Of a stretch of 64,000 nucleotides of DNA, positions 69-30,022 are shown in pieces. The position numbers and the translations under genes were made by a program. Position 1 is the stretch's first letter. Each line of letters begins with the position of its first letter. Source of the DNA: Patescibacteria group bacterium (GTDB lineage Bacteria; Patescibacteriota; Patescibacteriia; SG8-24; DYFX01); the NCBI GenBank assembly GCA_030583805.1, contig CP129476.1:309453-373452 (forward strand). The letters run 5' to 3'. Under the pieces are notes generated by a model. It was not told where the DNA came from. It saw nothing but the letters and a program-made list of their open reading frames with translations, and did no database searches.

Positions 69-2102
69 TTACTGCAGGACTGCCCCCTTTCTTAGCGCTT
101 TTTCGAGGGCTGGATAGACCAGCATCGCACCATCCTCGCTTAAATGATCCGAATCGAAATAGAGAAACCTCCCGTTTTTAACCAACGGACATCTCCCCTC
201 CAGGCAGTAGACGTCCGTAAAATCAAGCACGGTCACATTCGAGCCGGCATAGCTGTGCAAGAGCGCGGCCATCCACCCCTGCGCCGTCTCATGCTCTTCC
301 GTCGTAAGCGATAAGGCGTTCATTGTGTCATCCGTACGCTCGCTTCTCCTCAGCACATCTACGGGCCGATATTTTTGAAGAGGATTATCGACGACAAGAT
401 ATACATGGACGCCGATCGCACGGTACGCCTCGATCGTCTGCTCCAAGCCTTCTTGCAGCGCGCGAAAGCTCGCCCTGCGCCCTTCGTACATCGTCTCTTC
501 GGCTGACGGCCTGGGTCGCGCGATACGAATCCGATCATCGTTATAGTTCGTCCAGCGCGCGACCAGAAACACATCGCGAATGCCGTGCTCTTTGACATAC
601 TCAAAAATCTGTCGATTGCGCTGGGCATAGGGGTCAGCGTACTGCCATCCCGAATCAGGACACGACAGGCCGAGTAATGGCGGCCTGCTGCTTCCGAAAA
701 CGAAGCTTTGGCCCTTGGCTCGAGCATATGCCGCAAACGCCGGCCGCATACTTTCCGCATGGGAATCTCCGGTGACAAAGGCTGTCAGTGGAGCGTCTTG
801 CGCGCCGAGACGGCAAAACATGGCCGGATCATCAATGGAAACGCAGCCACCCGCACCAAGCTTCACGGAGCGTAGATACGTTTCGAGTTTGCGCGACACG
901 GAACGGAACGCGAAACCGTCCGACCACATCACGGACACGCCAATCACACCGAGCGCCGCGAGCGCGACCAAGAGCGTCCTGGGCGAGATGAGTTTGTCGT
1001 AGCGCACCGGTTTCTCAACGAAGCGGTACGTCAGCCAGGCGAGAATAATCGAGACAGCGACCAATCCGGATTTAAGTACCCACGACGTCTCCACGCCGAC
1101 GACGATGCGCGAGTACGAGAGGAGCGGCCAATGCCAAAGATACAGCGGAAAGCTGATGAGACCGCACCAGACCAACGTTCTCTGCGAAAGAACGCGGCGA
1201 TTGATCCAGGCGTTTGCGCCGGCGGAGATGAGCAACGCCGCGCCGAGCGTGGGCAAAAGCGCCCACCAGCTCGGAAAAAGGTCTTCCTTAATGATCACGG
1301 CGAATCCGAAAGCAAGCAGGAACGCGCCCAGTATCGCGCAGAACTGCTCAAATACTCTGGCTTTCGGCCACCATGGAATATCGCGTCCGCCGCGAATCAG
1401 CCATTTGTCGATCGTTGCGGCGATGGAAGCAAGTATCGCGGACGGACGGTGCGTCGAGCTCGCGAGCACCGCGCCGAGCAAGAGCTCCCAAGCGCGGGTC
1501 TGCGGCGCGTAAAAATCCATCACGGGCTGCGCCTTGGCGACGGCGATATTCCACGCGAACGACGCGAGCACACCGGCGGACAGCACGACGAGAGGGCGCG
1601 CGCGCAACCGGTGCACTCCCCAAAGCAGAAGAGGAAAAACGAGATAGAACTGCTCCTCGATCGCCAGAGACCAGAGATGCAGCAAGACTTTGCGGTCCGA
1701 TTCCACATCGAAATAACCGCTCTCCTCCCAAAGGAGGAAATTCGAACTGAACGTCGCGCCGCCGAGAAGATGCTTGCCCGTATGCAATAACTCTTCCTTG
1801 CTCAAGAAGAGCCAGCCCGCGACGAACGTTGCGATCAGAACGATGATGAGCGACGGAAAAATTCTGCGGACACGACGCGCATAAAATTCAAGAAAGCTGA
1901 AACTCCCTTTTTCGAGGCCGCTCAAGATGATCGAAGCGATCAGGAAACCAGAAATGACGAAAAAAATATCGACGCCCATGAAACCGGCCGGAACCCACTC
2001 AGGAAAGGCGTGGAACGCAACCACGGCCAAGACGGCGAGCCCGCGAAGGCCGTCGATATCGGGGCGGTACGTTGGGCGCGCCAGTGCTGTTGAATCCTGC
2101 AT
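69..2102 (-). CDS. Membrane acyltransferase family 3 (OatA/OafA-like) with C-terminal SGNH hydrolase domain
   Basis: N-terminus MQDSTALARPTYRPDIDGLRGLAVLAVVAFH...GVDIFFVISGFLI is the classic acyl_transf_3 start, followed by multiple TM helices. C-terminal GDSHAES...SGNH-like region. ATG chosen at residue 69 of the track ORF. Confidence 0.85.
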   Translation of the reverse strand: MQDSTALARPTYRPDIDGLRGLAVLAVVAFHAFPEWVPAGFMGVDIFFVISGFLIASIILSGLEKGSFSFLEFYARRVRRIFPSLIIVLIATFVAGWLFLSKEELLHTGKHLLGGATFSSNFLLWEESGYFDVESDRKVLLHLWSLAIEEQFYLVFPLLLWGVHRLRARPLVVLSAGVLASFAWNIAVAKAQPVMDFYAPQTRAWELLLGAVLASSTHRPSAILASIAATIDKWLIRGGRDIPWWPKARVFEQFCAILGAFLLAFGFAVIIKEDLFPSWWALLPTLGAALLISAGANAWINRRVLSQRTLVWCGLISFPLYLWHWPLLSYSRIVVGVETSWVLKSGLVAVSIILAWLTYRFVEKPVRYDKLISPRTLLVALAALGVIGVSVMWSDGFAFRSVSRKLETYLRSVKLGAGGCVSIDDPAMFCRLGAQDAPLTAFVTGDSHAESMRPAFAAYARAKGQSFVFGSSRPPLLGLSCPDSGWQYADPYAQRNRQIFEYVKEHGIRDVFLVARWTNYNDDRIRIARPRPSAEETMYEGRRASFRALQEGLEQTIEAYRAIGVHVYLVVDNPLQKYRPVDVLRRSERTDDTMNALSLTTEEHETAQGWMAALLHSYAGSNVTVLDFTDVYCLEGRCPLVKNGRFLYFDSDHLSEDGAMLVYPALEKALRKGAVLQ

Positions 2103-2122
2103 TTCGGACGGAGTGTAGCAGG
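2078..2122. repeat. Direct repeat copy B (~45 bp), start region of the acyltransferase gene
   Basis: gcgccAgtgctgTtgaatcCtgcatttcggacgGagtgtagca, near-identical to 1-45. Confidence 0.7.
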
Positions 2123-2151
2123 ATCGCGAAGCCGGCAAAAGCGCGGGAAGT

Positions 2152-2490
2152 TCAATCCAACGCCCAAGGACTTTTCTTGGGCGCGTACAGCCAGAAGAGG
2201 TCGTCGCCTTCGACGGCAATCTCGATTTTTTCGAGTTCGGAACCTTCGGGCGCTCCCCCGGCGTCAGGTACGGCCACGCCCGTTTTGCAGTCGAACTGAC
2301 CGCCATGCCAATCGCACTCGAGGACGTCGCCGGTACAGCGAAGTTTGCCGCCCATGTGGGTGCAGAAGTTGACGTAGCCGCGCAGGCCGTCGCCGGTATT
2401 CACGACGATCAGGTCCTTTCCCATCGCGCGATAGCTTTTCGCGCGGCCGGCCGCGATCTCCGAAACTTTTCCGAGCGGAATCTTTTCCAT
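2152..2490 (-). CDS. Rieske [2Fe-2S] domain protein (small ferredoxin-like)
   Basis: CTHMGGKL...CDWHGGQFD gives the CXH...CXXH Rieske cluster ligands. 112 aa. Confidence 0.8.
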   Translation of the reverse strand: MEKIPLGKVSEIAAGRAKSYRAMGKDLIVVNTGDGLRGYVNFCTHMGGKLRCTGDVLECDWHGGQFDCKTGVAVPDAGGAPEGSELEKIEIAVEGDDLFWLYAPKKSPWALD

Positions 2491-2491
2491 C

Positions 2492-4174
2492 CTAGCGGAT
2501 CACGCCTCCCCATTCGACGACGGTGAAGCCGTCGCGCACTGGGGTTTGAATGTCGAAGCCTTGAACCGGGATCGGTTTTTCAAGCGGCAAGAAGTCCATG
2601 AGCACGCGGATGACCGTATCGGGCTTAGGCGAAATTTCAAGCGGTGCGAGCGCGTCCATCGTGCGGTTGCCCATGAAGGTCACGAAGTACCACGGCGAGC
2701 CCGACATGCGCGGCTCCCAGAATTCAATGAAGTCGGCGCGCTCTTGCGTATTCAATCCGAGCGCGGAAAGTTTTTCGACCAGGAAGGCATGCACGTCTTT
2801 CTGCGCCACGACGAAGCCTTGCTTCGGCGTCTCGTACAAGCCGCCGCGTCCCTCCCAGAAAAGATACGGGTACGCTTTGCCGTCCTTCAGGTTCGTGAGC
2901 TCCCCTTTCGGCGTCGCGCGCACGTTCCAACCGCCGTCGTAGGCCGGTTCGGTCACCGTGAACCCGCCTTGCGGGTACAGCTTCACGCTGACGTCGGTCG
3001 TCTCTTCGGGGTAGAGATAGATGACAGGCTTTCCGCATTCAACCGCCGGCAAGAAGGCGGCTTTCTGGAATTTCGCGAGACGGCCGAAGGGATCGCGCCA
3101 GAAAAACAGCGGCTGTGCCTTCACGAAGTCTTCGTAAGACATCTTGTCGTCGCCGCGGCCCATCGCATAGCTGTTCTCGTAGGTATCTTTCAGCAGCGCG
3201 TGATCGGCATTCTTGAGCGCATAGACGCTCTCCCCCTGCGAGGTCTTTCCCACGGCGACGAGATCGCCCTGCGCGACGCCCTGGACGACGGAGAGGAAGT
3301 TGGACGCGCCGCAGCCTCCGACGTCGGTTGCCCAATATTCTTCCGTATTTTTCAGGCCGTCCGCCCAGGTCACGTCGGGAACATGCACGTCTTCGTCATA
3401 GAACGGGACGTCGAGCGCGTAGGCGCGAACGGTTCCGTCCGGAGCAACCGCGTAAAAACCATGTTGCGGACGAGCGACCGCTTCCGTATCCGTGTACATC
3501 GTACCGAGCGTCTCGTGGACGAATGCGATCTTTCTATCTCTCGAGTCGAAAAGAGGCGCGTCTTTCTGCGGATCCTGCTGGCCGAAAAGCGACAGCCGCT
3601 GGATGCGCATGGTCGCTCCATTCTGTTCAATCGTCGTCGGGAAGATAAGTTCCGGAATGACGTTCGTGTCGTCAATCACGAATTTTTCGGCATCAAAACG
3701 GACCGGACCGTACTCGTTCGGCTCCGAATCGATAAACGGAGAATGGTTGGCGAGAAGCACGGGCTTGCCCGACTTCGGGAGCAGCGCGTGATACGTCGTA
3801 TAATCCCCCATGTTCATCGCCGTCACGGTCACGATCACGACCATCGCGCCGGCATACGGCTCCGACACGACCGTGCCCACGCGATGCAGCTTGTCCTGCG
3901 GTGGGAAGTCGGTCATGCGCTGGCGTTCGATCATTTCCTTGTACGCTTCGGAGAAGAGATCGGGGCTCGTCATTTCTTTCGGAGCCGACCACTTCACGGC
4001 CAGCACTGCCGTCGCGCTTTCCGTCGGCGCCGAAGGCTGCTCAACGGGCGTTTGCACCGGCGTTTCTGGCGTCACGACGGCACCATCGGGCTGCCGCACG
4101 AAGGCTGCGTATGCCACCACGATCAACGACGCCGCGCCGACGACGAGCAGGATCCGAAAATAGTGCTTATTCAT
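2492..4174 (-). CDS. Hypothetical membrane-anchored/secreted protein (560 aa)
   Basis: Start reassigned to ATG at 4172-4174 (MNKHYFRILLVVGAASLIVVAYAAF is a signal anchor). The track ORF starts upstream at TTG. Pro/Thr-rich linker, then a large domain with no motif I recognise. Confidence 0.6.
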   Translation of the reverse strand: MNKHYFRILLVVGAASLIVVAYAAFVRQPDGAVVTPETPVQTPVEQPSAPTESATAVLAVKWSAPKEMTSPDLFSEAYKEMIERQRMTDFPPQDKLHRVGTVVSEPYAGAMVVIVTVTAMNMGDYTTYHALLPKSGKPVLLANHSPFIDSEPNEYGPVRFDAEKFVIDDTNVIPELIFPTTIEQNGATMRIQRLSLFGQQDPQKDAPLFDSRDRKIAFVHETLGTMYTDTEAVARPQHGFYAVAPDGTVRAYALDVPFYDEDVHVPDVTWADGLKNTEEYWATDVGGCGASNFLSVVQGVAQGDLVAVGKTSQGESVYALKNADHALLKDTYENSYAMGRGDDKMSYEDFVKAQPLFFWRDPFGRLAKFQKAAFLPAVECGKPVIYLYPEETTDVSVKLYPQGGFTVTEPAYDGGWNVRATPKGELTNLKDGKAYPYLFWEGRGGLYETPKQGFVVAQKDVHAFLVEKLSALGLNTQERADFIEFWEPRMSGSPWYFVTFMGNRTMDALAPLEISPKPDTVIRVLMDFLPLEKPIPVQGFDIQTPVRDGFTVVEWGGVIR

Positions 4175-5984
4175 ACGTCTGTTTGAGTGTAAAAATTCCG
4201 GACGCGATCGCTGCTTTGACGTCTTCGGAGACGTAGGAATCCTCCGCGAGGGTTCGCAGCAACATACCGCGTTTTTCAAAGGACATCAAGGAGGGTTGGA
4301 CGGCCCGAATCTCAATCGGCATGAGGTGAAAGACCGTTTCTTTTTCATCGGCAGCGATGCCGACCGCGAGCCCCTGGCTGGTCTCCGCGCTGAACGATTG
4401 GTCAAAAATGAAATTGCCCAGCGAGTAAAAGATCGCCTTTCCTTTATAGACCTCGATCGGCTGGATGACGTGCGGGTGCGCGCCGAGCACGACGTCGGCG
4501 CCTGCGTCGATGAACGCGTGCGCGATATTTTTCTGCGCTTGCGTGGGAAAGCGCTCGTACTCCACGCCCCAGTGCGGATAGACGACGATGAACGCGCCTT
4601 GCCGCTTCGCATCGACGATCGCTTTCGCGATTTCTTCCATGTCCCGTCCGCCGAACTGGTGGTAGCCGATTTGAACGACCGCGCGGCCCCGCACGTCGGT
4701 CGTCGCCATCACCCCGTCGCGATTCGAAGGGTCGCCGAACGGCACCAGGCCGGCTTGGCGCGTGAGCTCGCGCGCGCCTTCGAGCGCGGAGGTGCCGAAA
4801 TTCAGCGCGTGGTTATTCGCGTAGCCGAGGTGCGTAAACCCCGCGCGTTTCAACGTCGAAAGCAGCCACGGTTCGAACGGAAAGCGCAAATCGTCCGGCG
4901 CGCGCGGTTTTTGCTCTTCCGGCACGTCAATGAACACGCCTTCGGCATTGGCCGTCACGAGATCGCTTCCTTTGAACAGCCTGGGCATGCCGGCAAACAG
5001 GTGATTCGGTTCTTTGCCCTGCAGCAACGCCTCGACACCGCGCGCAAGCATCATGTCGCCGAAGGCGAGCAGCGTGATCGTTGCGTCCTTTTCCTTCTTT
5101 CCGCCTTTGTAGGAACCGACGAGATAACTCGTGACGTCAGGTTGGCCGGGGTGTTCCGTCAGTTCCGCGGAGTTCGATTGCGCGAACAGCGAAAACCGCC
5201 GCGCGCCGACGCTGTCCATGAAACGCATGACGAGACGCAGCCCTTGCCTCGAATCGATATCGACCGCGCGGGCGCCCTCGTCATCCAGCGCCCGCAGAAC
5301 GGCCAAGCTTTTACGGTCGTGGAAGCGCGCGGCCGTATCGGTCAGCTCATGCGTGAAATCGAACGATCCGACGACAAGCACGCGCGACCCGAAAATCTCG
5401 CGCATCTCCCGCACGACGCGCTCGATCTCCGCATCCGTCGCCGTCTCTTTGACGATCAGCGGCACGATGCGCGCATTCGGCATCGATTTCTTGATGAACG
5501 GCACGATGCCGGAAATCCCGTGTTCGCGCGTGAAGGGTTCTTCCTCGATCGCGGCGGCGCCGACTCGCGCCAAACGTTCAACAGCGTCGCAATCGCTTTC
5601 CAGCTGACCGTACGGCGTGCGCCAGGAGGACGGCGTCGTGAGAATCGGCGCTTGACCCGCCATGAAATGATTCGGGCTCACGAGCACGACGGTCTTCGGA
5701 CGTTCCGTCTCGACGGCTTCGAACGCCTCGGCAATCAAGGAAGCCGCCAGGAGGTGATGCGGCACGATCAATCCCTTGATGTTGGCGTCAGATGCGCGCG
5801 GCTCGGCGCTTTGATACGCCTTGTCGAACGTATCCGGCGTGCTGAAGTAGGAATACTGCAGCGACTCGGGACAAACCTTGGCGATCTCGCGCTCTTCGAT
5901 CCTGCGCGTCCAAACGAAAAAAGCGCCAAACAGCGCTGCAACAAAGAGCGTCCCGACGACGATGTTATGAGCGATCCTTCGCAT
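4167..5984 (-). CDS. Fusion protein: N-terminal MEMO1/AmmeMemoRadiSam-B-like domain plus C-terminal CapA/PGA_cap metallophosphoesterase-like domain
   Basis: N-terminal TM anchor. GLIVPHHLLAAS and SFDFTHELT resemble the Memo-family PHAGY/DFSHYG motifs. C-terminal FGDMMLARGV, ANNHALNFG, YPHWGVEY and GAHPHVIQPIEVYKGKAIFYSLGNFIFDQ are the PGA_cap/CapA signatures. Confidence 0.75.
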   Translation of the reverse strand: MRRIAHNIVVGTLFVAALFGAFFVWTRRIEEREIAKVCPESLQYSYFSTPDTFDKAYQSAEPRASDANIKGLIVPHHLLAASLIAEAFEAVETERPKTVVLVSPNHFMAGQAPILTTPSSWRTPYGQLESDCDAVERLARVGAAAIEEEPFTREHGISGIVPFIKKSMPNARIVPLIVKETATDAEIERVVREMREIFGSRVLVVGSFDFTHELTDTAARFHDRKSLAVLRALDDEGARAVDIDSRQGLRLVMRFMDSVGARRFSLFAQSNSAELTEHPGQPDVTSYLVGSYKGGKKEKDATITLLAFGDMMLARGVEALLQGKEPNHLFAGMPRLFKGSDLVTANAEGVFIDVPEEQKPRAPDDLRFPFEPWLLSTLKRAGFTHLGYANNHALNFGTSALEGARELTRQAGLVPFGDPSNRDGVMATTDVRGRAVVQIGYHQFGGRDMEEIAKAIVDAKRQGAFIVVYPHWGVEYERFPTQAQKNIAHAFIDAGADVVLGAHPHVIQPIEVYKGKAIFYSLGNFIFDQSFSAETSQGLAVGIAADEKETVFHLMPIEIRAVQPSLMSFEKRGMLLRTLAEDSYVSEDVKAAIASGIFTLKQTYE

Positions 5985-6690
5985 GCACGTCTTTGGCGTG
6001 TCCGAAGGTGTAGGCGAAACGGTCGTCGCGGATCTGGCTGCGCATCAAAAGATGCAGCTCGGCCAAGAGATATTTGCCGAAAATGGAAAAACGGCCGTCG
6101 CGCTCGAAGCGGCGCACCGACACGCGGATGCGCGTGCCGTGCAGCACGCGGAACGTGCCGATCCTGCGCGCGCGTTCGACATAGTCGTGATCTTCCGCCA
6201 ACTTGATCGATTCGTCGAAACCCTTGATGCGTTCGTGCAGGCGCTTGCGCGCGAAAATGCAAAAGCCGGGAGCGTGCGCCAGCATGAATTGCGTCGCCAT
6301 CATGTGCGCGTTGAAGACGTTGTGGGAAACGTGGTCGATCAACTTTCCGTCCATCGGCTTCACGAGACACGTCGCCGCGTCGAGCTCGCGCCGCGTGAAC
6401 TGTTCCATTTTTCCGGCGAGCCAATCGACGTCGGGCAACACGACGTCGGCATCGAGGAACAAGAGCACGTCGCCCTTCGCCGCTTCGGCGCCGCGATTGC
6501 GTCCCGGTCCCGGCATACCGCCGTCGACGACCCGCGCGCCGAACTGCAGCGCGATCTCGCGCGTCCGGTCGCTTGAGTGCGCGTCCGCAACAACAATCTC
6601 ATACCCGTCAAAGTTCTGGCTTCGAATGGAAGCCAGGAGCCTCGGCAGATACCCTTCCTCGTTGTAGGTCGGAATGATGATGCTTAGCAT
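5965..6690 (-). CDS. Glycosyltransferase family 2
   Basis: MLSIIIPTYNEEGYLPRLLASI...VVADAHSSDRT...LFLDADV are GT2 motifs. ATG at 6688-6690. Overlaps the downstream gene start by 20 nt. Confidence 0.85.
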   Translation of the reverse strand: MLSIIIPTYNEEGYLPRLLASIRSQNFDGYEIVVADAHSSDRTREIALQFGARVVDGGMPGPGRNRGAEAAKGDVLLFLDADVVLPDVDWLAGKMEQFTRRELDAATCLVKPMDGKLIDHVSHNVFNAHMMATQFMLAHAPGFCIFARKRLHERIKGFDESIKLAEDHDYVERARRIGTFRVLHGTRIRVSVRRFERDGRFSIFGKYLLAELHLLMRSQIRDDRFAYTFGHAKDVHAKDRS

Positions 6691-6917
6691 ATGTGGTTTT
6701 TTAGCTCTTTTGAGCCAAAAAACCGTATCAATGGCTATGGTAGCATACTTTGGCACTTAAAGGAAGGGGCGCGGGAAGCACGCGATCTCGACCACTCTCG
6801 CTGACACCACGACATAACAAGGGCGCCGCGCCGCTGACGAAACATCGCTCCTGTGGAAAAGCCGCGTCGTACGAGCCTGCCGCGCGAAACGCCGGAGTCT
6901 GCTATCATAGAGGCACT

Positions 6918-8072
6918 ATGCGCCGCTTCGTTCTTGCTTTCACGCTCAGTCTCACCCTACTCTCCGCCGCTCCCGCCTTTGCCGCCGAAGGCTCCAAGCC
7001 TTTTTTCTCGGAGATCGGTAGGCACTTTCTCACGGGCGCGCGCTTTTACGGCAACACCATCAGCAACCTCTCATGGAAGCTCATGGTGCGTTTGGGGTTC
7101 GACCGGTTTTTTTCGACCACGGGCGAGGGCGGCCTCTGCGACCAGAGCACGCGCTGCGCGGAAGGGCTCGTATGCCTGAACACCTGCAAGGAAGCCTCGT
7201 GCGCCCGCTTTGAAAAGCACTGCGTGATCGGACCGGCGTCGGTGCCGGTCGTCGGTGCATCTTCCATTTGCGGCGCGGAAAACTTGTGCGTCGACGGCAC
7301 GGAATGCCTCCGCGTCTGTCCGGTCGGCGCGACGTGCAGCGCCTCGCATCGCTGCGTCGCGATCCGACGACCGGGGCTCGCCTGCTCGGATGATCTCGAC
7401 TGTAAAGCTTCGTGCGGCGCTCTCTCCGCCCCTGAAATCGGCCCGGGCGCCTACGCAGCGCGCTGCGATCAAGGAAGTTGCGCTTGCGACCCCGTCGAAA
7501 TTACGCCCAACGCTGAACGCATGGCCTGCGGAACATCGACCGTGCTGCTCGGCTGCCCGACAAGCACGTTCCAAGCCTGCGCAAGAGGCGAGAACGGCCA
7601 GCCGTACGCCACCTGCCTCACCTCCCCCGAGTACGGCGGCATGTGTTTTGAAGACGCGGAATGCTCCGCCGCTGCTTGTCCGGAAGGCGCGACGCCGTTC
7701 TGCGACGAAAGCCGCGCCTGCAAATGCCGCGCCACGGAAACGAACGTTATCGCCTGCTCCAACAACGACGAATGCAGCGCGTCGATCTGCGCGCAAAACG
7801 AAATCGCGGCTTGCGTTTCCGGCGCGTGCGCCTGCGCGCCCGCCGGAGTCACCTCGGCCTGCACCACGACCTCCGACTGCTCGACAGAGTGCCCGTCGGG
7901 ATTCGAAGCCGCTTGCGAACAATCGACCTGCGTCTGCCAGCGCACGCAAGAAAACGTCCCCGTCGCCTGCCAAACGGTAGCAGACTGCGGAGCGGTCACG
8001 TGCTTGGGTGACTTTCAAAAAACCTGCCTGGATAACGTCTGCGCCTGCACGCGAACGACTGCGCCCCGCTGA
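6918..8072 (+). CDS. Secreted cysteine-rich repeat protein (hypothetical)
   Basis: Signal peptide MRRFVLAFTLSLTLLSAAPAFAAEG. About 5 tandem ~30-aa modules of the form Cx4-5(D/E)Cx3-4Cx5-9Cx5CxC, each ending in CAC, CKC or CVC. Confidence 0.65.
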   Translation: MRRFVLAFTLSLTLLSAAPAFAAEGSKPFFSEIGRHFLTGARFYGNTISNLSWKLMVRLGFDRFFSTTGEGGLCDQSTRCAEGLVCLNTCKEASCARFEKHCVIGPASVPVVGASSICGAENLCVDGTECLRVCPVGATCSASHRCVAIRRPGLACSDDLDCKASCGALSAPEIGPGAYAARCDQGSCACDPVEITPNAERMACGTSTVLLGCPTSTFQACARGENGQPYATCLTSPEYGGMCFEDAECSAAACPEGATPFCDESRACKCRATETNVIACSNNDECSASICAQNEIAACVSGACACAPAGVTSACTTTSDCSTECPSGFEAACEQSTCVCQRTQENVPVACQTVADCGAVTCLGDFQKTCLDNVCACTRTTAPR

Positions 8073-13418: not shown

Positions 13419-13489
13419 TCGGGGATCGTCTAATGGTAGGACAACAGACTCTGAATCTGTTTATCTTGGTTCGAATCCAGGTCCCCGAG
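13419..13489 (+). tRNA. tRNA-Gln (anticodon CTG)
   Basis: Hand-folded cloverleaf: acceptor tcgggga/tccccga, D-arm gtc-taatggtag-gac, anticodon stem acaga/tctgt with loop ctCTGaa, T-arm cttgg-ttcgaat-ccagg, discriminator G, encoded CCA at 13490-13492. Confidence 0.85.
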
Positions 13490-13664
13490 CCAAAGAAATT
13501 AAGTTCAGGTAGACCGGAACCTCCGCCCAAAACTGACGGGGTTCCAATAGACCGGAATGCCTGAAATCGAATGTGAAAGCACTGGAGAGATCCGGTGTTT
13601 TCGTTTTGACGAAGCCTTTCCTGAGGGGTACGGTGATGTCCGAATAATAACCCTAATAAAGTGA

Positions 13665-16600
13665 GTGGTGGCCAAGCCTATTAAGAGGAAAATATACGCG
13701 GCCAATCTGACCACCCTCATGGGGTTTGGCCTATTCGGCATCCTTTCGGCCGAAGCCTACTATGTTGGATCTTCCACGGCCTCCAAGCTTGTGGGTGATT
13801 TCCACAGAGGTGATTACGGATATTGGCTGGCGACCATCTGCACGGGCTACCTGCTGTATGTCGTCGCCTATTTCATCTTGAGAGGCGGTCCGGCTGCTGC
13901 TGCGAAACTGCTTAAGAGCAGGCGCGCGGATGTCGTTGGTGTCTTCGTGGCCGGAGCACTGATGAGTATCTCGTTCGGCGGATTCGGCAGTCCCCTCTAT
14001 CAGAAATTGGCATATACACTCACCGTCTATCAAATACTCACGCTCGCCCTGCTGCCATTTGCGCTGGGACTTTTGATCTTGCTCCGAGCATTGCAGCGTG
14101 GTCCGGATCGAGAGGGCTTGCCGCCGTTTTTCATCAGCGACGTTGAGCAGAAAAACAAGACTGGCGACCTACTTGACCTTGCGGATGAGGCAGATCGGTT
14201 TGCAGAGCGCGTCTGGAACAACGGCTCAATAGAAAGCATGGTGTTCGGCATTGACGCGCCATGGGGCATCGGAAAGTCATCATTCGTAAATTTTTGCAGG
14301 GAGTCATGGGAAGGAAAACACAGAGGACGGGTCATCCTCTATAATTTCAATCCCCTAAGGTATGAAGATCGGGCGAATCTCCTTGAGAAGTTCGTCGACG
14401 GCCTTGTTCGCGTCGTACAAAAACACGCTTTTGTCCCAGAGATTAGGCCACTGGTTTCAAAATATTCTCGCTTCATCAAAAGCGCCAAAGCGTCATTCAG
14501 TTTTTTGGGGGTTGATTTCGAATTGGCACCCGGCACATATACGGTCGATGATGCCTTCGCAGATCTTGAATCAGCCCTGACCGACATCGACAGAAAAATT
14601 GTCATCGTCATCGACGATCTCGACAGGTTGGATTTCTCGGCGATTAAGGACGTCCTCTCTGTGATTAAGAAGAGTTTTAACCTGCCCAATGTTTCCTACG
14701 TCCTCTGCTACGACACTGAGAATATCAATGTGCTGGAAAGGGAACGGCCTGATGTTGAGAAAGTGACGGAGTTCCTTGAGAAATTCGTCAACGTCAAGGT
14801 GGGCCTGTACCTCGACAGCGAGACGCTCGCTAAATACGTCTCCACCAATCTCGCCAGGGCCCTAGTGGGTAACTCTCAGGCCGATCCGAAGCTGGTTTCG
14901 GCGGCGGTTGGTGGTCTCATCGACATCTATAAGTCTCCCGAATTCCACCGCTACCTGCCCTTCATCGGCGATGTTAGAAAAATCAAGAGGTTCATCAATA
15001 CACTCCTGCTTCTTGAAATCGAAAAGGCTGATTTCAAGAATAGTGATTTCGACAAGCAGGACTTGGTTCATCTGCTGTTGATCTATATTAATTATCCGAG
15101 CATCTTCCGGAAGATTTATAACGCCGAGACGAATGGGCGCCGGGGGTTCTTTTCGGTCGCCATGCCCCTCGATGATAACTACCCGAAGGATCCGAGTGCG
15201 GCGCGATCAGGACTAGAAAACACCTACAAAAACTCTACGGATTACGAGGCCTATGTGAAAAAACTTACCGATAACCAGAAATTCCTGCTCGGCAAGATTT
15301 TTGACGTTCCTCTAAGGTTGAAGGACGCGAGAATTGACGGCGTCCCTCAAGAAGCCAAGCATGTGTACGCTTGTTTCAATGGGGGCGTGTTCGGCGGCGG
15401 CCAAAATCTTGAGGCCTACCTCAATTTGATCGTCAAACTTTCCAAGCCCCAAAAGAGTGGCCAGTACAAGTTTTACGCAAATCTCAAGGACGAGATCCGC
15501 GACGGAAAGAAGTCCATCGATGATGTACTGTCAACATCCGATTTTTCGTATGATTGCCCAGAGAGCAACCGCGAACAGCTGTGGAAAGTCATCATCAACA
15601 GCCTGTCGGAATTCAAGAGTGTGGTGGGTAGCAAGCTGATCGTTCACCTGCTAGGGAATATGCAGAACTATTCCCTCTTCACAAATCAGGTGATTGGCGT
15701 CGGTTTGCGAGACGACCTAGATATTTTCCTGACGAGGCTGCTCGATCAGGTGGGTTGGAAGGATCAGAAAGGCGAGCACACCGACAACACCCCAGAAAAC
15801 ATTTCTGAAATTGCCGAATGGGTCTTTGGCGAAGGGCGGCACGCTGGTCAATCGGTTCTTTTGACACTCGCCAAAGAAGACCGCGGCACCCTCGGCCTCT
15901 ATGATCTGCTTTGCTTCCGCCTCTTTTGCAGCGCCGATCGAGGGGGTGATATCTTCAATCTTTCTCGTGCACTCTCAAAGCATGGCGACCCCAACGCACC
16001 GACAGATGGTTCAATAAGGGAGATTGCTATCGGGGAAATGCGTGAAATATCGCAAGCTGTCTTCGGTATTTTCAAGTCTCAATACATCGATCCCGGAAAA
16101 AACATTTTTGATTTAATCGATGGGCTCTCTTTGGCTGATTTTGCCGGAAAATACCAAGCATACATCGAAGGAAAGGTTACATCTGGAGAGATCGAAAATG
16201 CTGAAACTACGGTTGCCGATCTTAAGTCACGCATGAAGTCATTCATCACCTACCAACTGACCAATACCTACATCAGTAGCGGCGTCGGCTGCGGTTACTA
16301 CGACCCGTCAGGCAAAGAGGACGCTGGAGGAATCAGCCACAGCGTCAATGACTACCTTTTCGGTACGTGTTTTAACCCCAGCGTCGCCGGGAAAAATTAT
16401 GAACACTTCTTGGACTACTTGCTCATAAATTTTGCCAGCACCTTTGAATCAAGGGGTGGTCGTGAATACACCCCACATATCAATGAATTCACAAAAATCC
16501 TCGACAAGTCAAAGCTCGCAGAGTACTGGCGCGAACACGCCACCACGATCAGGGGTCTGAACCTAACTGAGAAGGAAAAGACAGTGATCACCTCAAATTA

Positions 16601-16700
16601 TTCTGCTTCGTACAAAGACGATCTGGCGGGCGTGTTTCAGGTGCTGGACAAGCTCATCGAAGAACCTGTAGTCGAGGCACCTGTCGCGCCTAGCGCTTAG
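13665..16700 (+). CDS. KAP family P-loop NTPase with four N-terminal transmembrane helices
   Basis: GTG start. Four hydrophobic helices in the first ~140 aa. FGIDAPWGIGKSSFVNF (KAP Walker A GxWGxGKS) and VIVIDDLDRL (Walker B). Confidence 0.8.
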   Translation: MVAKPIKRKIYAANLTTLMGFGLFGILSAEAYYVGSSTASKLVGDFHRGDYGYWLATICTGYLLYVVAYFILRGGPAAAAKLLKSRRADVVGVFVAGALMSISFGGFGSPLYQKLAYTLTVYQILTLALLPFALGLLILLRALQRGPDREGLPPFFISDVEQKNKTGDLLDLADEADRFAERVWNNGSIESMVFGIDAPWGIGKSSFVNFCRESWEGKHRGRVILYNFNPLRYEDRANLLEKFVDGLVRVVQKHAFVPEIRPLVSKYSRFIKSAKASFSFLGVDFELAPGTYTVDDAFADLESALTDIDRKIVIVIDDLDRLDFSAIKDVLSVIKKSFNLPNVSYVLCYDTENINVLERERPDVEKVTEFLEKFVNVKVGLYLDSETLAKYVSTNLARALVGNSQADPKLVSAAVGGLIDIYKSPEFHRYLPFIGDVRKIKRFINTLLLLEIEKADFKNSDFDKQDLVHLLLIYINYPSIFRKIYNAETNGRRGFFSVAMPLDDNYPKDPSAARSGLENTYKNSTDYEAYVKKLTDNQKFLLGKIFDVPLRLKDARIDGVPQEAKHVYACFNGGVFGGGQNLEAYLNLIVKLSKPQKSGQYKFYANLKDEIRDGKKSIDDVLSTSDFSYDCPESNREQLWKVIINSLSEFKSVVGSKLIVHLLGNMQNYSLFTNQVIGVGLRDDLDIFLTRLLDQVGWKDQKGEHTDNTPENISEIAEWVFGEGRHAGQSVLLTLAKEDRGTLGLYDLLCFRLFCSADRGGDIFNLSRALSKHGDPNAPTDGSIREIAIGEMREISQAVFGIFKSQYIDPGKNIFDLIDGLSLADFAGKYQAYIEGKVTSGEIENAETTVADLKSRMKSFITYQLTNTYISSGVGCGYYDPSGKEDAGGISHSVNDYLFGTCFNPSVAGKNYEHFLDYLLINFASTFESRGGREYTPHINEFTKILDKSKLAEYWREHATTIRGLNLTEKEKTVITSNYSASYKDDLAGVFQVLDKLIEEPVVEAPVAPSA

Positions 16701-17985
16701 CCACACTTAGATGTTGGTCTGCTAGAACAATGCTAGTTTTTACACAGAGGAGAAGCTCACGCTTTTCCTCTTTTGTTCCGTTGATTAGGACGTGGCGGAG
16801 GTACTTCTTGTGATCCAGCCGAGGCATTTTTGTGCTCGCCTCTGCACCGAGCATGGATGCCATGAAACGCTGATTCCGCTCAAGCTCGTCCTGGAATTTC
16901 TTTTTTGAAACCGCGTGGTCGATCTCCAGCTCGTCGAGGATGCCGACGAGCTGTTCAATGAGCACCTCCTCGCGAACGTACGGTTCCTTGCAGTCTTTGT
17001 CGGTGGTCCGCCCACAGTGATAGTAGACGTAGCGCTGGCGCGTGCCGTCGCGTAAGCTCTTGAACTTCTCCTGCGCTGTGACGCCGGAGCCGCACGCGCC
17101 GCACTTCATGAGGCGGGTGAAGGCAAACTCTTTCGACCCCCACTTGGTCTTTTTCTTTTCCATCGCCAGCTGCCTCTGCACGTCGTTGAACAATTCCTCC
17201 GTGACGATGGACTCGTGGGCCACCGGGAACCAGTTTCCGCTTCCGCATGGATACTCGAACCTGCCGTAGTAATAGGGGTTCCGGAGCATGAGGTAAATCA
17301 TGCTTAGCGGCAGTTTCTTGCCCTTCCGCGTTTTGAACCCGACCTCGTCGAGCCATACCTTGATCTTCCTGCCGCTGTGACCGAGGTTCGAGACGCGCTC
17401 GAACATCTCCTTGATGATTGGCGCACGTTCGGGATCGAGGAGAACCTTCTGCTCGCCCTTCATCGTTGTCTTGGTGTTGAAGTACCCGAGCGGCGACTGG
17501 TTCGGCCTCCAGCCCTGCTGCACCTTGGCACGTTGCCCCCGTTTCACGTTGACACCACGGTTGTCATTCTCGAGTTTTGCCTGACTGCACAGGATCATCA
17601 GCAGGAACTTCTCGTTCGGCGAGTTGGTGAAGTGCTGGCTCGGTGTTCGGATCTCGACGAGCTTCCCTTGATCCATGAGGTCGACGAGTGCCCCCAGGTC
17701 GCCGCCGTTGCGGCTGAGTCGGTCCGGTGCCCACGTCAGGATGCCGTTGAATGTCCCGGCGCGCACATCCGTGATCAGGCGGTTGTATTCCGGACGCTGG
17801 TTCGAGTCCTTCGCGGAGTGGCTCTCGCGCCGCGTCGCCACGACCTCCAGCTTCTCACGCTCGGCGAGCTCGAGCATCTCCTTGATCTGCGCGTCGATCG
17901 ACAGCGCCTGCCGCTCGTCCTGCTCGCTCGACTTCCGGGCGTACAGGCAGTACCGAACAGGTACGGCTTCAGTTGGCTTGTTCAT
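16690..17985 (-). CDS. Large serine recombinase (resolvase/invertase N-domain + recombinase domain + zinc ribbon)
   Basis: YCLYARKSSEQDERQALSIDAQ is the catalytic Ser region. CGACGSG in the C-terminal zinc-ribbon region. 431 aa. Confidence 0.85.
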   Translation of the reverse strand: MNKPTEAVPVRYCLYARKSSEQDERQALSIDAQIKEMLELAEREKLEVVATRRESHSAKDSNQRPEYNRLITDVRAGTFNGILTWAPDRLSRNGGDLGALVDLMDQGKLVEIRTPSQHFTNSPNEKFLLMILCSQAKLENDNRGVNVKRGQRAKVQQGWRPNQSPLGYFNTKTTMKGEQKVLLDPERAPIIKEMFERVSNLGHSGRKIKVWLDEVGFKTRKGKKLPLSMIYLMLRNPYYYGRFEYPCGSGNWFPVAHESIVTEELFNDVQRQLAMEKKKTKWGSKEFAFTRLMKCGACGSGVTAQEKFKSLRDGTRQRYVYYHCGRTTDKDCKEPYVREEVLIEQLVGILDELEIDHAVSKKKFQDELERNQRFMASMLGAEASTKMPRLDHKKYLRHVLINGTKEEKRELLLCVKTSIVLADQHLSVAKR

Positions 17986-18064
17986 AGCCCTTATTTGCCC
18001 TTACAGCCCCTTAATAGAAGGCATGTAGGACATCAATGCCGCACCCCGACCGTGAAGGCTAGGC

Positions 18065-18175
18065 TGGCCTTAAAAGCTCTTTAAAGCCATATGACACCGA
18101 CGAATCTCCGAACATCCCTGGCAATCCTGATGACAAGCATGGGGAAGGCATCCGCGAGATAGCTCGGCTATGCGA
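18065..18175 (-). pseudogene. Truncated 3' fragment of a second terminase large-subunit (terL) copy
   Basis: Reverse translation gives ...LADAFPMLVIRIARDVRRFVGVIWL*, matching the C-terminus of the intact TerL (...LADAFSMLVIRVAKDVRRFVGIIWL*). About 80% nt identity to 19360-19470. Confidence 0.7.
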
Positions 18176-18304
18176 ACCATCGAGACGAGGTCGGGATGAC
18201 ATTTTTGTCCCATAACGCACCATCATCGGATATTTGACGAGGATTAATCCACATGTTAGTCTTGCACCGGCTCACAACAACCACCCGAGCCATTGGAGGC
18301 AGAA

Positions 18305-18775
18305 ATGAAGCGCATCGTTCTTTTGACGGCGGTTCTCGCATACGGCGTGTTGACCTCGGGCTGTGTCGTGGATGACGACGGCGAGGACCTAGGGGTCACG
18401 GAGCAGGAGGTTACGGTCAACGACACACTGCCCACATCTGGGAGTAAGACGGTCAGCGTAGCCGTCTATCCTGGTGCACCCTCAGACATTATCATGAGTT
18501 CTCCGTCTTCCGGCAACTGGAAGTTCGAGACGTACGGCAGCCCAATCAGTCTGGGTGGTTGCTCGGCCGGCGACTTCATCGTCTACACCTACTGGCGAGA
18601 CACAAGCGTCAGCTCGACGTGGAACTACTGGCCAGGAGGCGGGCCGGTCTGTTACCCGACATCCGGGTGGTCGACGAACCTGTACAGCGGGAGCAGCACC
18701 ATTCAGTACAAGTTCGAGTACTACGCGTACGGCGGTTATGGCGAAACCGTTTACGCGAAGTTCACGAAGCAATAG
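18305..18775 (+). CDS. Hypothetical lipoprotein (Trp/Tyr/Ser-rich)
   Basis: GGAGG SD 5 nt upstream of the ATG. Signal peptide with lipobox LTSGC. Confidence 0.6.
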   Translation: MKRIVLLTAVLAYGVLTSGCVVDDDGEDLGVTEQEVTVNDTLPTSGSKTVSVAVYPGAPSDIIMSSPSSGNWKFETYGSPISLGGCSAGDFIVYTYWRDTSVSSTWNYWPGGGPVCYPTSGWSTNLYSGSSTIQYKFEYYAYGGYGETVYAKFTKQ

Positions 18776-18816
18776 TCGAGGGCTCGTACGTCGTGCTAGT
18801 ATGTGAATACAGCACG

Positions 18817-19287
18817 ATGTTTTTAAACCCAAACCATATGTCCATGCCCAAGCGTGTCCGGGAACTACTTTCCACAGCGTCCTTGTTGTTTTTTGTGTGG
18901 CTTTCCGCATTTAGTGGCGATTTCATTGCCGCGCGCACATTCCAAATGAATGATGCCTCCATCCGCAATCCTTGGTGGTCAGTAATCGTAATAGGGTTGC
19001 TCCAACTGATGTTCATGTACGTCGGAGCGCAAGCCATACTGCATATTCTTAAACCCGGCCGCGTCAATAAAAAGCTAGGATTACTTACAGCCCTAATCGC
19101 GTGGCTTTCACTAGAAAAAGTTCTCGCGTTTCCTCGATTGCTTGCGACTCTGCTTCCCAACGGGATTATCGGTACAAACACCGCTCTTTCTACGGTTATC
19201 GTAATTGCAGCACAACTTTCGGTGACGTATCTGCTGGTGTTGATTATCTCGCGCTTGTTGCTTACGGGAGAGGGTGATAGCAAGTGA
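18817..19287 (+). CDS. Hypothetical integral membrane protein (~4 TM)
   Basis: MFLNPNHMSMPKRV... start inside the longer track ORF. Multiple hydrophobic helices. Confidence 0.5.
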   Translation: MFLNPNHMSMPKRVRELLSTASLLFFVWLSAFSGDFIAARTFQMNDASIRNPWWSVIVIGLLQLMFMYVGAQAILHILKPGRVNKKLGLLTALIAWLSLEKVLAFPRLLATLLPNGIIGTNTALSTVIVIAAQLSVTYLLVLIISRLLLTGEGDSK

Positions 19288-19369
19288 CGATTGGGAGCAT
19301 ATAGTTACCGGGAGTAGCTAATGCCTTTCTGCTTGTGACTGTCTGGCTTGTGCCGCCCTTAAAAACCCC

Positions 19370-22638: not shown

Positions 22639-22710
22639 AAAAAATGGTCATGATGAGTTATCACCATGACCATATCAATCGACAGGTTCGGGTCGTGGGA
22701 AGTCTGACCC

Positions 22711-25662: not shown

Positions 25663-25666
25663 TGAT

Positions 25667-30009: not shown

Positions 30010-30022
30010 AAGACCGCCTCGC

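What the first reader, a model, noticed from the sequence alone, without database searches (positions are those of the whole stretch)
69..6690. Unusual envelope operon: GT2, Memo-like/CapA fusion, secreted protein, Rieske ferredoxin, acyltransferase
Five co-directional, overlapping or tightly spaced genes. The Memo (AmmeMemoRadiSam-B-like) domain is normally partnered with AmmeMemoRadiSam A and a radical-SAM enzyme. Here it is instead fused to a CapA/PGA_cap metallophosphoesterase-like domain and membrane-anchored. A standalone Rieske [2Fe-2S] protein embedded in a polysaccharide/polymer modification operon is unexpected. This may be a novel surface-polymer (for example poly-gamma-glutamate-like or glycan) modification pathway involving a redox step.
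Basis: partly seen in the sequence, partly recalled or inferred. Interest (0 to 1): 0.6.

Follow-up and report, generated by a model that had tools for sequence, protein, structure and literature searches.

The report
Conserved Memo-plus-unknown-protein envelope gene pair
The five genes are real, but they are not one pathway: only the membrane-anchored Memo/CapA-like enzyme and its uncharacterised 560-residue neighbour form a gene pair, and that pair is conserved across the ultra-small Patescibacteria and has no known function.

Summary
All five minus-strand genes and their domains are confirmed by profile searches. About 170 related loci show three separable units, not one pathway.

1. **Core pair.** The Memo+PGA_cap gene (4167-5984) and the next gene, here called P3 (2492-4174), recur together across Patescibacteria. 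Of 67 informative P3 loci from metagenomes, 62 have a Memo gene directly adjacent on the same strand. It lies on either side of P3, usually with touching or overlapping stop and start codons.
   - P3 is a very large family: 7,362 clusters at 50% identity. It has no Pfam domain and no sequence or fold neighbour in the PDB.
   - The Memo metal pocket is invariant. The PGA_cap half is optional: fused, split, degenerate or absent.
   - Both proteins carry a single N-terminal membrane anchor.
2. **GT2 and Rieske.** These are a clade-specific pair without membrane segments. In two relatives that lack Memo and P3 they overlap each other directly.
3. **AT3-SGNH acyltransferase.** It occurs only in the closest relative.

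No radical-SAM or AMMECR1 partner was found. No third gene, CapB/CapC included, recurs beside the pair. The idea of a redox polymer-modification operon is not supported. What emerges instead is a wider, uncharacterised envelope module. Its chemistry is inferred, not shown.

The parts
4167..5984 (-). Memo+PGA_cap fusion protein, 605 aa. It is one half of the conserved two-gene module.
   Evidence: PF01875 and PF09587; TIGR04336. It is 100% identical to an NCBI protein named 'AmmeMemoRadiSam system protein B' from a Patescibacteria MAG, on a contig of 1,167,441 bp. More than 80 fusion clusters were found. A profile of the family matches MslH at 5.1e-25 and MEMO1 at 7.3e-9 in the PDB.
5907..5963 (-). 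N-terminal membrane anchor of the fusion protein (about residues 8-26).
   Evidence: Kyte-Doolittle 19-residue maximum of 2.23 at residue 8. A segment of this kind is present in 34 of 36 family members, and almost none have a second one.
5157..5783 (-). Memo domain (residues 68-276) with a conserved metal pocket.
   Evidence: H76, H106, H155, D209 and H212 align with MEMO1 His49, His81, His131, Asp189 and His192. They are conserved in 35-36 of 36 fusions and in 17 of 17 variants with a degenerate PGA_cap.
4398..5075 (-). PGA_cap (CapA/MslH-type calcineurin-like) domain, residues 304-529.
   Evidence: PF09587, E 2.4e-54. D310, E348, N391, H392, H471, H503 and H505 are invariant in 36 of 36. N391/H392 and H505 align with MslH Asn87/His88 and His295 in the printed alignment; the other correspondences are inferred. 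MslH Asp91 aligns with N395 here; across the family this position is N in 19 and D in 17.
2492..4174 (-). P3, a 560-aa membrane-anchored protein of unknown fold and the constant partner of Memo. Anchor at residues 3-26, disordered linker at 27-53, beta-rich domain, then a C-terminal domain.
   Evidence: No Pfam or NCBIfam hit. More than 1,143 homologous clusters. AF2 model with pLDDT 84.5. No PDB fold hit at E<=0.001 and no PDB sequence-profile hit at E<=10. Adjacent to Memo in 62 of 67 informative loci.
2495..3061 (-). Highly conserved C-terminal domain of P3 (residues 372-560; motifs ECGKPVIYLYP, YPYLFWEG, GFTVVEWGGV).
   Evidence: 74% mean column identity. AF2 pLDDT 91.1, pTM 0.86. No PDB neighbour. 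7,362 representative clusters at E<=1e-3. One giant-virus match, Terrestrivirus A0A3G4ZNZ8, over 206 aligned columns (about the length of this domain) of the full-length P3 model, at E 9.9e-12.
5965..6690 (-). GT2 glycosyltransferase, 241 aa, no hydrophobic segment. A clade-specific neighbour, not part of the conserved module.
   Evidence: PF00535. TIGR04283 scores 109 bits, below its cut-off of 182. Present next to the module only in close relatives: L005/6, L089, L092, L093. It overlaps Rieske directly in L174 and L175. Absent from the 80 distant P3 loci.
2152..2490 (-). Small soluble Rieske [2Fe-2S] protein, 112 aa. Clade-specific and paired with the GT2.
   Evidence: PF00355. Only 39 homologous clusters, at 52-86% identity. 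No hydrophobic segment. Kept next to GT2 where Memo and P3 are absent.
69..2099 (-). AT3+SGNH O-acyltransferase of the OafA/OatA architecture. Strain-level neighbour.
   Evidence: PF01757 and PF19040. Six hydrophobic segments. A homologue is found only in L092, where a reversed SDR gene lies between it and Rieske. In L089 and L005 PFOR genes take its place.
6691..6914 (.). Divergent intergenic region upstream of GT2. Probable start of the minus-strand transcription unit.
   Evidence: Sequence read. The plus-strand Cys-rich gene starts near 6915. No sigma-70 consensus site was found.

Best explanation
The 6.6-kb stretch is a mosaic of three independent units, not one pathway.

**Unit 1: the conserved feature.** This is a two-gene envelope module found across Patescibacteria. 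It consists of a Memo-family metalloprotein, here carrying an extra PGA_cap domain, and P3, a 560-residue protein with no known fold.

Proposed mechanism:
- The two genes are translationally coupled, so the proteins are made in similar amounts (inferred from gene spacing).
- Each protein is held in the cytoplasmic membrane by one N-terminal helix, with its bulk on the outer face. The anchor is shown; the orientation is inferred from P3 charge distribution and, from general knowledge, the topology of Bacillus CapA.
- There they work as a complex on an envelope substrate (inferred).
- The Memo pocket (three His, one Asp, and probably Asp244) binds a divalent metal and is the indispensable catalytic or ligand-binding centre. 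Its conservation is shown; its chemistry is unknown.
- Where the PGA_cap domain is intact, it adds MslH-like metal-dependent acid/base chemistry on a peptide-type substrate. Examples would be epimerisation or cleavage of a peptide terminus or a wall peptide (inferred from conserved residues).
- P3 supplies the substrate-binding scaffold, or is itself the protein being processed.

**Unit 2.** GT2 and Rieske are a separate, clade-specific pair with no membrane segments. The module sits between them in this genome.

**Unit 3.** The AT3-SGNH gene is an ordinary O-acyltransferase picked up at strain level.
For: **From the P3 side**
- Of 80 P3 loci from metagenomes (30-57% identity), 61 have a Memo gene adjacent on the same strand, and one more has a truncated copy. 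Only 5 loci with at least 1.5 kb on both sides lack it. Memo lies upstream in 40 and downstream in 21.

**From the Memo side**
- 12 of about 29 Memo+PGA_cap loci have P3 adjacent. None of about 55 stand-alone PGA_cap loci has P3 within 10 kb.

**Gene spacing**
- Stop and start codons overlap, or lie within 2 nt, in the window and in L003, L005, L007, L089, L090, L092 and L093.

**No third partner**
- No other gene recurs next to the pair. Flanking genes are housekeeping genes.

**Memo is the core; PGA_cap is optional**
- Memo occurs fused to PGA_cap (40 loci), with PGA_cap as a separate gene (2), or alone at about 300 aa (13).
- The ~500-aa variants keep all ten Memo pocket residues in 17 of 17 sequences, but have lost every PGA_cap metal or catalytic residue.
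- The pocket residues match MEMO1 His49, His81, His131, Asp189 and His192.
- In intact fusions the putative PGA_cap metal and catalytic residues are invariant.

**Membrane anchoring**
- One N-terminal hydrophobic segment in 34 of 36 fusions and in 42 of 42 P3 proteins.

**Envelope flavour of alternative partners and neighbours**
- DUF3160, alpha-2-macroglobulin-like giant proteins, SLH proteins with Wzy_C, Peptidase_S11, MurJ and Germane-domain proteins.

**GT2, Rieske and AT3 are separable**
- See, and the differing downstream genes.
Against: - No experiment, and no structure prediction of the complex, links the two proteins physically.
- The outward orientation of the Memo/PGA_cap protein is not clear from charges in the window protein: 2 K/R before the helix, and 4 K/R plus 4 D/E after it.
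- P3 has no recognisable fold or motif, so its role as scaffold or as substrate is a guess.
- Five P3 loci lack a Memo neighbour. About half of the Memo+PGA_cap loci from genomes lack P3, although several of those contigs are cut short.
- In the window clade the MslH Asp91 equivalent is Asn, so MslH-like chemistry may not apply here.
- GT2-Memo-P3-Rieske stays as a block in at least five genomes at 61-82% Memo identity. A clade-specific functional link therefore cannot be fully excluded.
Confidence: 0.6

Rival explanations
1. All five genes form one surface-polymer modification pathway: GT2 builds or primes a glycan or polymer, Memo/CapA modifies it using electrons from the Rieske protein, and the AT3 enzyme acylates it.
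For: The genes are co-directional and tightly spaced or overlapping, with one upstream intergenic region. The four-gene block GT2-Memo/PGA_cap-P3-Rieske is kept in L005/6, L089, L092 and L093, even though the gene after Rieske differs.
Against: - GT2 and Rieske are absent from all 80 distant P3 loci and from the other genome loci, even with HMMs.
- GT2 and Rieske overlap each other directly in L174 and L175, which have no Memo, PGA_cap or P3.
- Rieske and GT2 have no membrane segment, whereas Memo and P3 are anchored.
- AT3 is present only in the window and in L092, where a reversed gene separates it from Rieske.
- Patescibacteria genomes pack unrelated genes tightly: in relatives the same run continues into PFOR, PTA, ACK and MurJ.
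Confidence: 0.07
2. Enzyme and substrate. Memo/PGA_cap is a maturation enzyme, and the adjacent large exported protein is its substrate. That substrate is P3 in Patescibacteria, and DUF3160, alpha-2-macroglobulin-like or SLH proteins elsewhere. This would resemble MslH, which epimerises the C-terminal residue of a peptide encoded in its own gene cluster.
For: - The partner changes while tight coupling is kept: DUF3160 in L015, L018 and L021; A2M-like in L025, L031 and L048; SLH in L026.
- The nearest characterised PGA_cap enzyme acts on a peptide C-terminus.
- P3 ends in a nearly invariant ...GFTVVEWGGV[LI]R, usually as the very last residues.
Against: - Many pairs have Memo without a working PGA_cap domain, so MslH-type chemistry cannot be the common denominator.
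- Some P3 homologues carry 1-5 extra C-terminal residues.
- The alternative partners share no motif with P3: hhalign of P3 against DUF3160 gives probability 0.4%.
- Memo has no known protein-modifying activity.
Confidence: 0.2
3. A poly-gamma-glutamate (CapA/PgsA-type) capsule system, with the fusion protein acting as the CapA component.
For: A strong PF09587 match. JGI names several homologues 'poly-gamma-glutamate synthesis protein'.
Against: - No CapB/PgsB (Mur-ligase-like) or CapC family appears in the Pfam-annotated neighbour tables, and no third gene recurs across the other loci.
- The PGA_cap domain is degenerate or absent in a large share of pairs.
- P3 is absent from all stand-alone PGA_cap loci.
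Confidence: 0.03
4. A true AmmeMemoRadiSam system, with component B encoded away from its A and C partners.
For: TIGR04336 scores 109.6 bits against a cut-off of 26, and NCBI uses that name for the protein.
Against: - No CxxxCxxC ORF anywhere in the 64-kb window.
- No AMMECR1 or AmmeMemoRadiSam-type radical-SAM gene appears in the annotated neighbourhoods of the homologues. The only radical-SAM neighbour is a MiaB-like tRNA enzyme in L019.
- The protein has a membrane anchor and a constant, different partner, P3.
Confidence: 0.02

Closest known systems
MEMO1 / AmmeMemoRadiSam system protein B (PF01875, TIGR04336)
   Same: Same domain family. The pocket residues His49, His81, His131, Asp189 and His192 of human MEMO1 are all conserved.
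   Different: - It is membrane-anchored and probably faces outwards.
- It has no AMMECR1 or radical-SAM partner.
- It is fused to PGA_cap, or stands alone, and is always paired with P3.
- MEMO1 Cys244 is probably replaced by the invariant Asp244 (unresolved).
MslH, lasso-peptide C-terminal Trp epimerase (PDB 8GQ9; PGA_cap family)
   Same: It is the best PDB match to the C-terminal half (profile E 5.1e-25). N391/H392 and H505 align with MslH Asn87/His88 and His295. D310, E348 and H471 are invariant and are inferred to correspond to Asp11, Glu44 and His259/261.
   Different: - NF038314 scores 78 bits against a cut-off of 700.
- There is no lasso-peptide gene cluster.
- It is membrane-anchored.
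- Asp91 is Asn in the window clade.
- The domain is dispensable in many pairs.
CapA/PgsA of the Bacillus poly-gamma-glutamate synthetase complex
   Same: PGA_cap domain behind a single N-terminal membrane anchor. The anchor topology of CapA is from general knowledge.
   Different: No CapB or CapC partner. It is fused to Memo and paired with P3.
LigB-type class III extradiol dioxygenases (PF02900)
   Same: Weak profile similarity (E 0.0022, below the cut-off). Memo is a structural homologue of this fold. An acidic residue may restore a 2-His-1-carboxylate site.
   Different: No aromatic-degradation context. The match is below the family cut-off. An oxygen-dependent reaction is untested.
OafA/OatA-type AT3-SGNH O-acetyltransferases
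   Same: The gene at 69-2099 has exactly this two-domain architecture.
   Different: It is not linked to the conserved module, and its substrate is unknown.
Rieske ferredoxins of ring-hydroxylating oxygenase systems
   Same: A small soluble Rieske protein with CxH...CxxH ligands. Weak NCBIfam similarity to dioxygenase ferredoxin subunits.
   Different: No oxygenase or reductase partner is present. It is paired with a GT2. The family is narrow, with 39 clusters. Scores are far below the equivalog cut-offs.

Membership tests
Memo family (PF01875) | Profile match above the Pfam gathering score. | tested here: met
   83.6 bits against 27, on residues 68-276.
Memo family (PF01875) | MEMO1 pocket residues His49, His81, Asp189, His192 and Cys244. 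| tested here: inconclusive
   Four of the five align with H76, H106, D209 and H212 and are conserved. The Cys244 position could not be aligned with confidence: hhalign stops at MEMO1 residue 206, and MAFFT needs a 20-residue gap.
AmmeMemoRadiSam system (TIGR04335/6/7 triad) | Component B model TIGR04336 above its cut-off. | tested here: met
   109.6 bits against 26. This is a permissive hypothetical-equivalog cut-off.
AmmeMemoRadiSam system (TIGR04335/6/7 triad) | AMMECR1 (A) and radical-SAM (C) partner genes present. | tested here: not met
   No CxxxCxxC ORF in the 64-kb window. Neither family appears in the neighbour tables. The rest of the 1.17-Mb genome could not be read.
PGA_cap (PF09587) | Profile match above the gathering score. 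| tested here: met
   185 bits against 27, on residues 304-529.
Poly-gamma-glutamate synthetase complex (CapBCA/PgsBCA) | CapB/PgsB ligase and CapC/PgsC genes next to CapA. | tested here: not met
   No such family appears in the Pfam-annotated neighbour tables, and no third gene recurs across the other loci. No targeted CapB/CapC profile search was run.
MslH-type peptide epimerase (NF038314) | Equivalog score. | tested here: not met
   78.4 bits against 700.
MslH-type peptide epimerase (NF038314) | Catalytic and metal residues Asp11, Glu44, Asn87, His88, Asp91, His259/261 and His295. | tested here: inconclusive
   N391/H392 and H505 align with Asn87/His88 and His295. D310, E348 and H471 are invariant but their correspondence is inferred, because the alignment to MslH covers only parts of the domain. 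Asp91 aligns with N395 here; across the family that position is D in 17 and N in 19 of 36.
Rieske [2Fe-2S] (PF00355) | Profile match and the CxH...CxxH ligands. | tested here: met
   45.7 bits against 20.3. C43, H45, C59 and H62 are read directly from the translation.
Rieske oxygenase electron-transfer chain | Oxygenase alpha subunit and reductase encoded alongside. | tested here: not met
   Neither is present in the window neighbourhood or in L005, L089, L092, L174 or L175.
GT2 (PF00535) / TIGR04283 | Family match, and the TIGR04283 equivalog cut-off. | tested here: inconclusive
   PF00535 is met (85.6 bits against 23.3). TIGR04283 scores 109 bits against 182 and is not met. It is a generic small GT2.
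AT3-SGNH O-acyltransferase (OafA/OatA architecture) | PF01757 membrane domain followed by the PF19040 SGNH domain. | tested here: met
   107.5 and 139.4 bits. Six hydrophobic segments.

The most novel reading that the evidence does not exclude
Memo plus P3 is a previously unrecognised extracytoplasmic metalloenzyme system specific to Patescibacteria. A non-haem-metal Memo enzyme would work with a new-fold partner to mature or remodel the cell envelope. Peptide epimerisation, cross-linking or processing of wall or surface proteins are examples. This would give the enigmatic Memo family its first defined bacterial role, and would name one of the largest uncharacterised protein families of the candidate phyla radiation.
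Probability: 0.3. Interest if true: 0.75.

Novelty: new variant of a known kind. Interest (0 to 1): 0.5.

Why it matters
- **Annotation.** Hundreds of Patescibacteria proteins are named 'AmmeMemoRadiSam system protein B' or 'poly-gamma-glutamate synthesis protein'. In these genomes neither system is supported, so the names mislead.
- **Scale.** The gene pair is one of the more widespread uncharacterised features of Patescibacteria. The P3 C-terminal domain alone has 7,362 clusters at 50% identity. These organisms have a poorly understood cell surface that is central to their life attached to other cells.
- **Memo function.** The biochemical role of the Memo family is disputed even for human MEMO1. 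A form with an invariant pocket, one fixed partner and an optional second enzyme domain gives a simple system in which Memo chemistry could be tested.
- **Operon logic.** The case shows that tight operon-like spacing in these compact genomes does not imply a shared pathway.

Tried and rejected

**Searches that found nothing for P3**
- Full-length model: no PDB hit at E<=0.001. The top hits were beta-propeller proteins at probability below 0.1.
- C-terminal domain model: none either.
- Pfam on P3 at E<=10, and on all 42 aligned members: no consistent family.
- P3 profile against PDB sequences: zero hits at E<=10.
- hhalign of P3 against DUF3160: no relationship.

**Literature (held library only)**
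- Searches for AmmeMemoRadiSam, PGA_cap with Memo, DUF3160, and Memo-like with Patescibacteria terms found nothing on this fusion or pair.

**Unresolved alignment**
- Aligning MEMO1 Cys244 failed with hhalign and was ambiguous with MAFFT. The MEMO1 sequence used there was typed partly from memory.

**Leads considered and dropped**
- Rieske as electron donor for the downstream PFOR genes. The PFOR genes are not adjacent in the window or in L092, and small ORFs separate them from Rieske in L174 and L175.
- The Rhizobium plasmid fusion (P0120). It sits in a TIR/STAND/CHAT context that resembles a defence island, without P3. It was not taken as informative for the Patescibacteria module.
- No sigma-70 promoter consensus was found in the region, and terminator-like sites are no more frequent than in shuffled sequence. 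Transcript boundaries stay open.


Full report
**Observation.** The window carries five co-directional minus-strand genes between 69 and 6690.

- The 605-aa fusion protein has Memo on residues 68-276 (PF01875, 1.8e-23) and PGA_cap on residues 304-529 (PF09587, 2.4e-54). TIGR04336 scores 109.6 bits against a cut-off of 26.
- The 'secreted protein', called P3 here, has no Pfam or NCBIfam hit.
- Spacing is as described: a 20-nt GT2/Memo overlap, 2-nt and 1-nt gaps around P3, and about 52 nt before AT3.
- A 224-nt divergent intergenic region lies upstream of GT2.
- The fusion protein is identical to an NCBI protein from a Patescibacteria MAG, on a 1.17-Mb contig, named 'AmmeMemoRadiSam system protein B'.

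**What is conserved.** I compared about 170 related loci.

*From the fusion side:*
- More than 80 Memo+PGA_cap clusters exist, almost all from Patescibacteria.
- In annotated contigs the gene next to the fusion is repeatedly a protein of about 560 aa with no Pfam hit. It is 48-54% identical to P3.
- An HMM scan of 88 loci found P3 beside about 12 of 29 Memo-containing loci, upstream or downstream. It found P3 beside none of about 55 stand-alone PGA_cap loci.

*From the P3 side:*
- 80 metagenome loci with P3 at 30-57% identity gave 61 with a Memo gene directly adjacent on the same strand, plus one truncated copy.
- Five loci lack it despite at least 1.5 kb on both flanks. Thirteen contigs were too short to judge.
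- That is 62 of 67 informative loci. Memo lies upstream in 40 and downstream in 21.
- Called genes overlap by 1-4 nt, or lie within 2 nt, in eight loci.
- Clustering of all neighbours found no third recurrent gene. Flanks are housekeeping genes such as TatD, CvpA, ATP synthase and EF-Tu.

Adjacency that survives changes of gene order and of surroundings, at 30% identity, is good evidence for a functional pair.

**Which half of the fusion matters.**
- Next to P3, Memo is fused to PGA_cap in 40 loci, has PGA_cap as a separate upstream gene in 2, and stands alone at about 300 aa in 13 (example L091).
- A further class of about 500 aa (for example P0106 in L007) keeps all ten conserved Memo positions in 17 of 17 sequences. 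Every PGA_cap metal or catalytic residue is lost, and the segment around H471 is deleted.
- In intact fusions D310, E348, N391, H392, H471, H503 and H505 are invariant. N391/H392 and H505 align with MslH Asn87/His88 and His295. The other correspondences to the residues shown by mutagenesis to be needed in MslH are inferred.
- MslH Asp91 aligns with Asn395 in the window. Across the family this position is Asp in 17 and Asn in 19 of 36.
- The Memo positions H76, H106, H155, D209 and H212 align with MEMO1 His49, His81, His131, Asp189 and His192. These form the putative metal pocket of MEMO1 (PMC9477392).
- Whether the invariant Asp244 replaces MEMO1 Cys244 could not be settled.

Memo is therefore the indispensable partner of P3. 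PGA_cap is an accessory enzyme domain that has decayed or been lost repeatedly.

**P3.**
- It has an N-terminal hydrophobic helix in 42 of 42 members, followed by a disordered linker, a beta-rich domain and a very conserved C-terminal domain. That domain has 74% mean column identity, and P3 contains two invariant cysteines, C288 and C380.
- AlphaFold models are confident: pLDDT 84.5 for the full length, and 91.1 with pTM 0.86 for the C-terminal domain.
- Foldseek finds no PDB neighbour at E<=0.001 for either model. A sequence profile finds nothing in the PDB at E<=10.
- The C-terminal domain profile finds 7,362 representative clusters at 50% identity, of which 4,071 score below 1e-30.
- The domain also occurs in other architectures:
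  - as three copies in a signal-peptide plus ankyrin-repeat protein, where the motif cysteine is missing;
  - fused to a domain resembling Peptidase_MA (weak, sub-threshold match) that carries an HExxH motif;
  - in a Terrestrivirus protein (Foldseek E 9.9e-12).
- It is therefore an autonomous module of unknown function.

**The other three genes.**
- GT2 and Rieske accompany the pair only in close relatives: L092 at 82% Memo identity, L093 at 70%, L005/6 at 61%, and L089.
- The gene after Rieske differs among them: AT3 here, a reversed SDR followed by AT3 in L092, and PFOR-PTA-ACK-MurJ in L089 and L005.
- The Rieske family is narrow, with 39 clusters.
- In two more distant members, L174 and L175, orthologous GT2 and Rieske genes overlap each other by 41 nt in the same syntenic backbone (Trypsin_2-GSDH-GT2-Rieske...PFOR). 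Those loci contain no Memo, PGA_cap or P3.
- HMMs for this GT2 and this Rieske find nothing in the 80 distant P3 loci.
- GT2 and Rieske have no hydrophobic segment.

GT2-Rieske is thus a separate clade-specific pair, and the Memo-P3 pair lies between its two genes in this genome. AT3-SGNH is a strain-level neighbour.

**Known systems excluded.**
- No ORF in the 64-kb window has a CxxxCxxC motif.
- No AMMECR1 or AmmeMemoRadiSam-type radical-SAM gene appears in any annotated neighbourhood. The AmmeMemoRadiSam triad is therefore not met locally.
- No CapB or CapC is seen near any annotated locus, and no third gene recurs, so a poly-gamma-glutamate system is not supported.
- The MslH equivalog score is far below its cut-off, and there is no lasso-peptide cluster.

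**Most likely mechanism.**

| Status | Point |
|---|---|
| Shown | The pair is conserved. |
| Shown | The genes are spaced for translational coupling. |
| Shown | Each protein has one N-terminal anchor. |
| Shown | The Memo pocket is invariant. |
| Shown | The PGA_cap domain is optional, and its conserved metal-site residues are intact where it is kept. |
| Inferred | Both proteins face the outside of the membrane. |
| Inferred | They form a complex. |
| Inferred | They act on an envelope substrate of peptide type. |
| Inferred | Memo is the core metal site, and PGA_cap adds MslH-like acid/base chemistry. |
| Inferred | P3 is either a scaffold or the processed protein. |

An envelope setting fits the alternative tightly coupled partners of Memo+PGA_cap elsewhere. 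These are DUF3160 in Caldisericum, in an Atribacteria MAG and in one Parcubacterium, alpha-2-macroglobulin-like giant proteins, and SLH proteins with Wzy_C. It also fits occasional neighbours such as Peptidase_S11, MurJ and Germane-domain proteins. The chemistry and the substrate remain unknown.

**Verdict.** The proposed five-gene redox pathway is not supported. The better-supported finding is a widespread, uncharacterised two-gene envelope module of Patescibacteria, whose database names point to systems that are not there. No paper in the held library mentions it. I rate it as a new variant built from known domain families plus one unknown family. It is of moderate interest as a lead, with more to gain if the Memo-P3 chemistry turns out to be new.

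Noticed in passing
window 13419-32000: A low-GC island (48-55%, against about 60% elsewhere) begins right after a tRNA gene at 13419-13489. It carries two large serine recombinases (16693-17985 and 28648-30009, both minus strand), a KAP-family NTPase, two N6/N4 DNA methylases, a ResIII helicase and a terminase-like gene (19373-20932). It looks like an integrated mobile element or prophage remnant.
   Followed up: partly
L174:4513-5554 and L175:4712-5780: Orthologues of the window's GT2 and Rieske genes overlap each other by 41 nt in relatives that lack Memo and P3. A small GT2 coupled to a small Rieske protein is an unexplained clade-specific pair in its own right.
   Followed up: partly
P0241, P0244; BFVD entry A0A3G4ZNZ8: The P3 C-terminal domain also occurs outside the usual architecture. 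It appears as three copies in a signal-peptide plus ankyrin-repeat protein, where the ECGKP cysteine is missing. It is fused to a domain resembling Peptidase_MA (sub-threshold Pfam match) that carries an HExxH motif. It also occurs in a giant-virus (Terrestrivirus) protein, at Foldseek E 9.9e-12.
   Followed up: partly
L015, L018, L021; L025, L031, L048; L026: Memo+PGA_cap fusions without P3 are translationally coupled to other large exported proteins. These are DUF3160 (Caldisericum, an Atribacteria MAG and a Parcubacterium) and proteins of about 1,850 aa resembling alpha-2-macroglobulin. In a Peribacteria chromosome the fusion is flanked by SLH-domain proteins and a Wzy_C protein.
   Followed up: partly
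L008 (Rhizobium leguminosarum plasmid CP050083.1): A distant Memo+PGA_cap fusion (29% identity) lies among TIR-STAND-WD40, CHAT and AAA_15 genes. This context resembles a defence island and is unrelated to the Patescibacteria module.
   Followed up: no
window 6915-8072 (+): A cysteine-rich exported protein of about 385 aa, with a signal peptide and no Pfam hit, is transcribed divergently from GT2. An unannotated gene of similar size holds the same position in L089 and L175.
   Followed up: no
window 4296-6206 (+) and 2546-4186 (+): Antisense ORFs of 636 and 546 aa lie opposite the Memo/PGA_cap and P3 genes. They are artefacts of the high GC content and can mislead gene calling that picks the longest ORF, as happened in my own.
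   Followed up: yes
L128:3496-9460; L118:2388-3050: Where P3 lacks a Memo neighbour, it sits between MurJ and a DKNYY-family protein in L128. In L118 it lies directly after a Germane-domain protein, a family also seen near P3 in four other loci.
   Followed up: no
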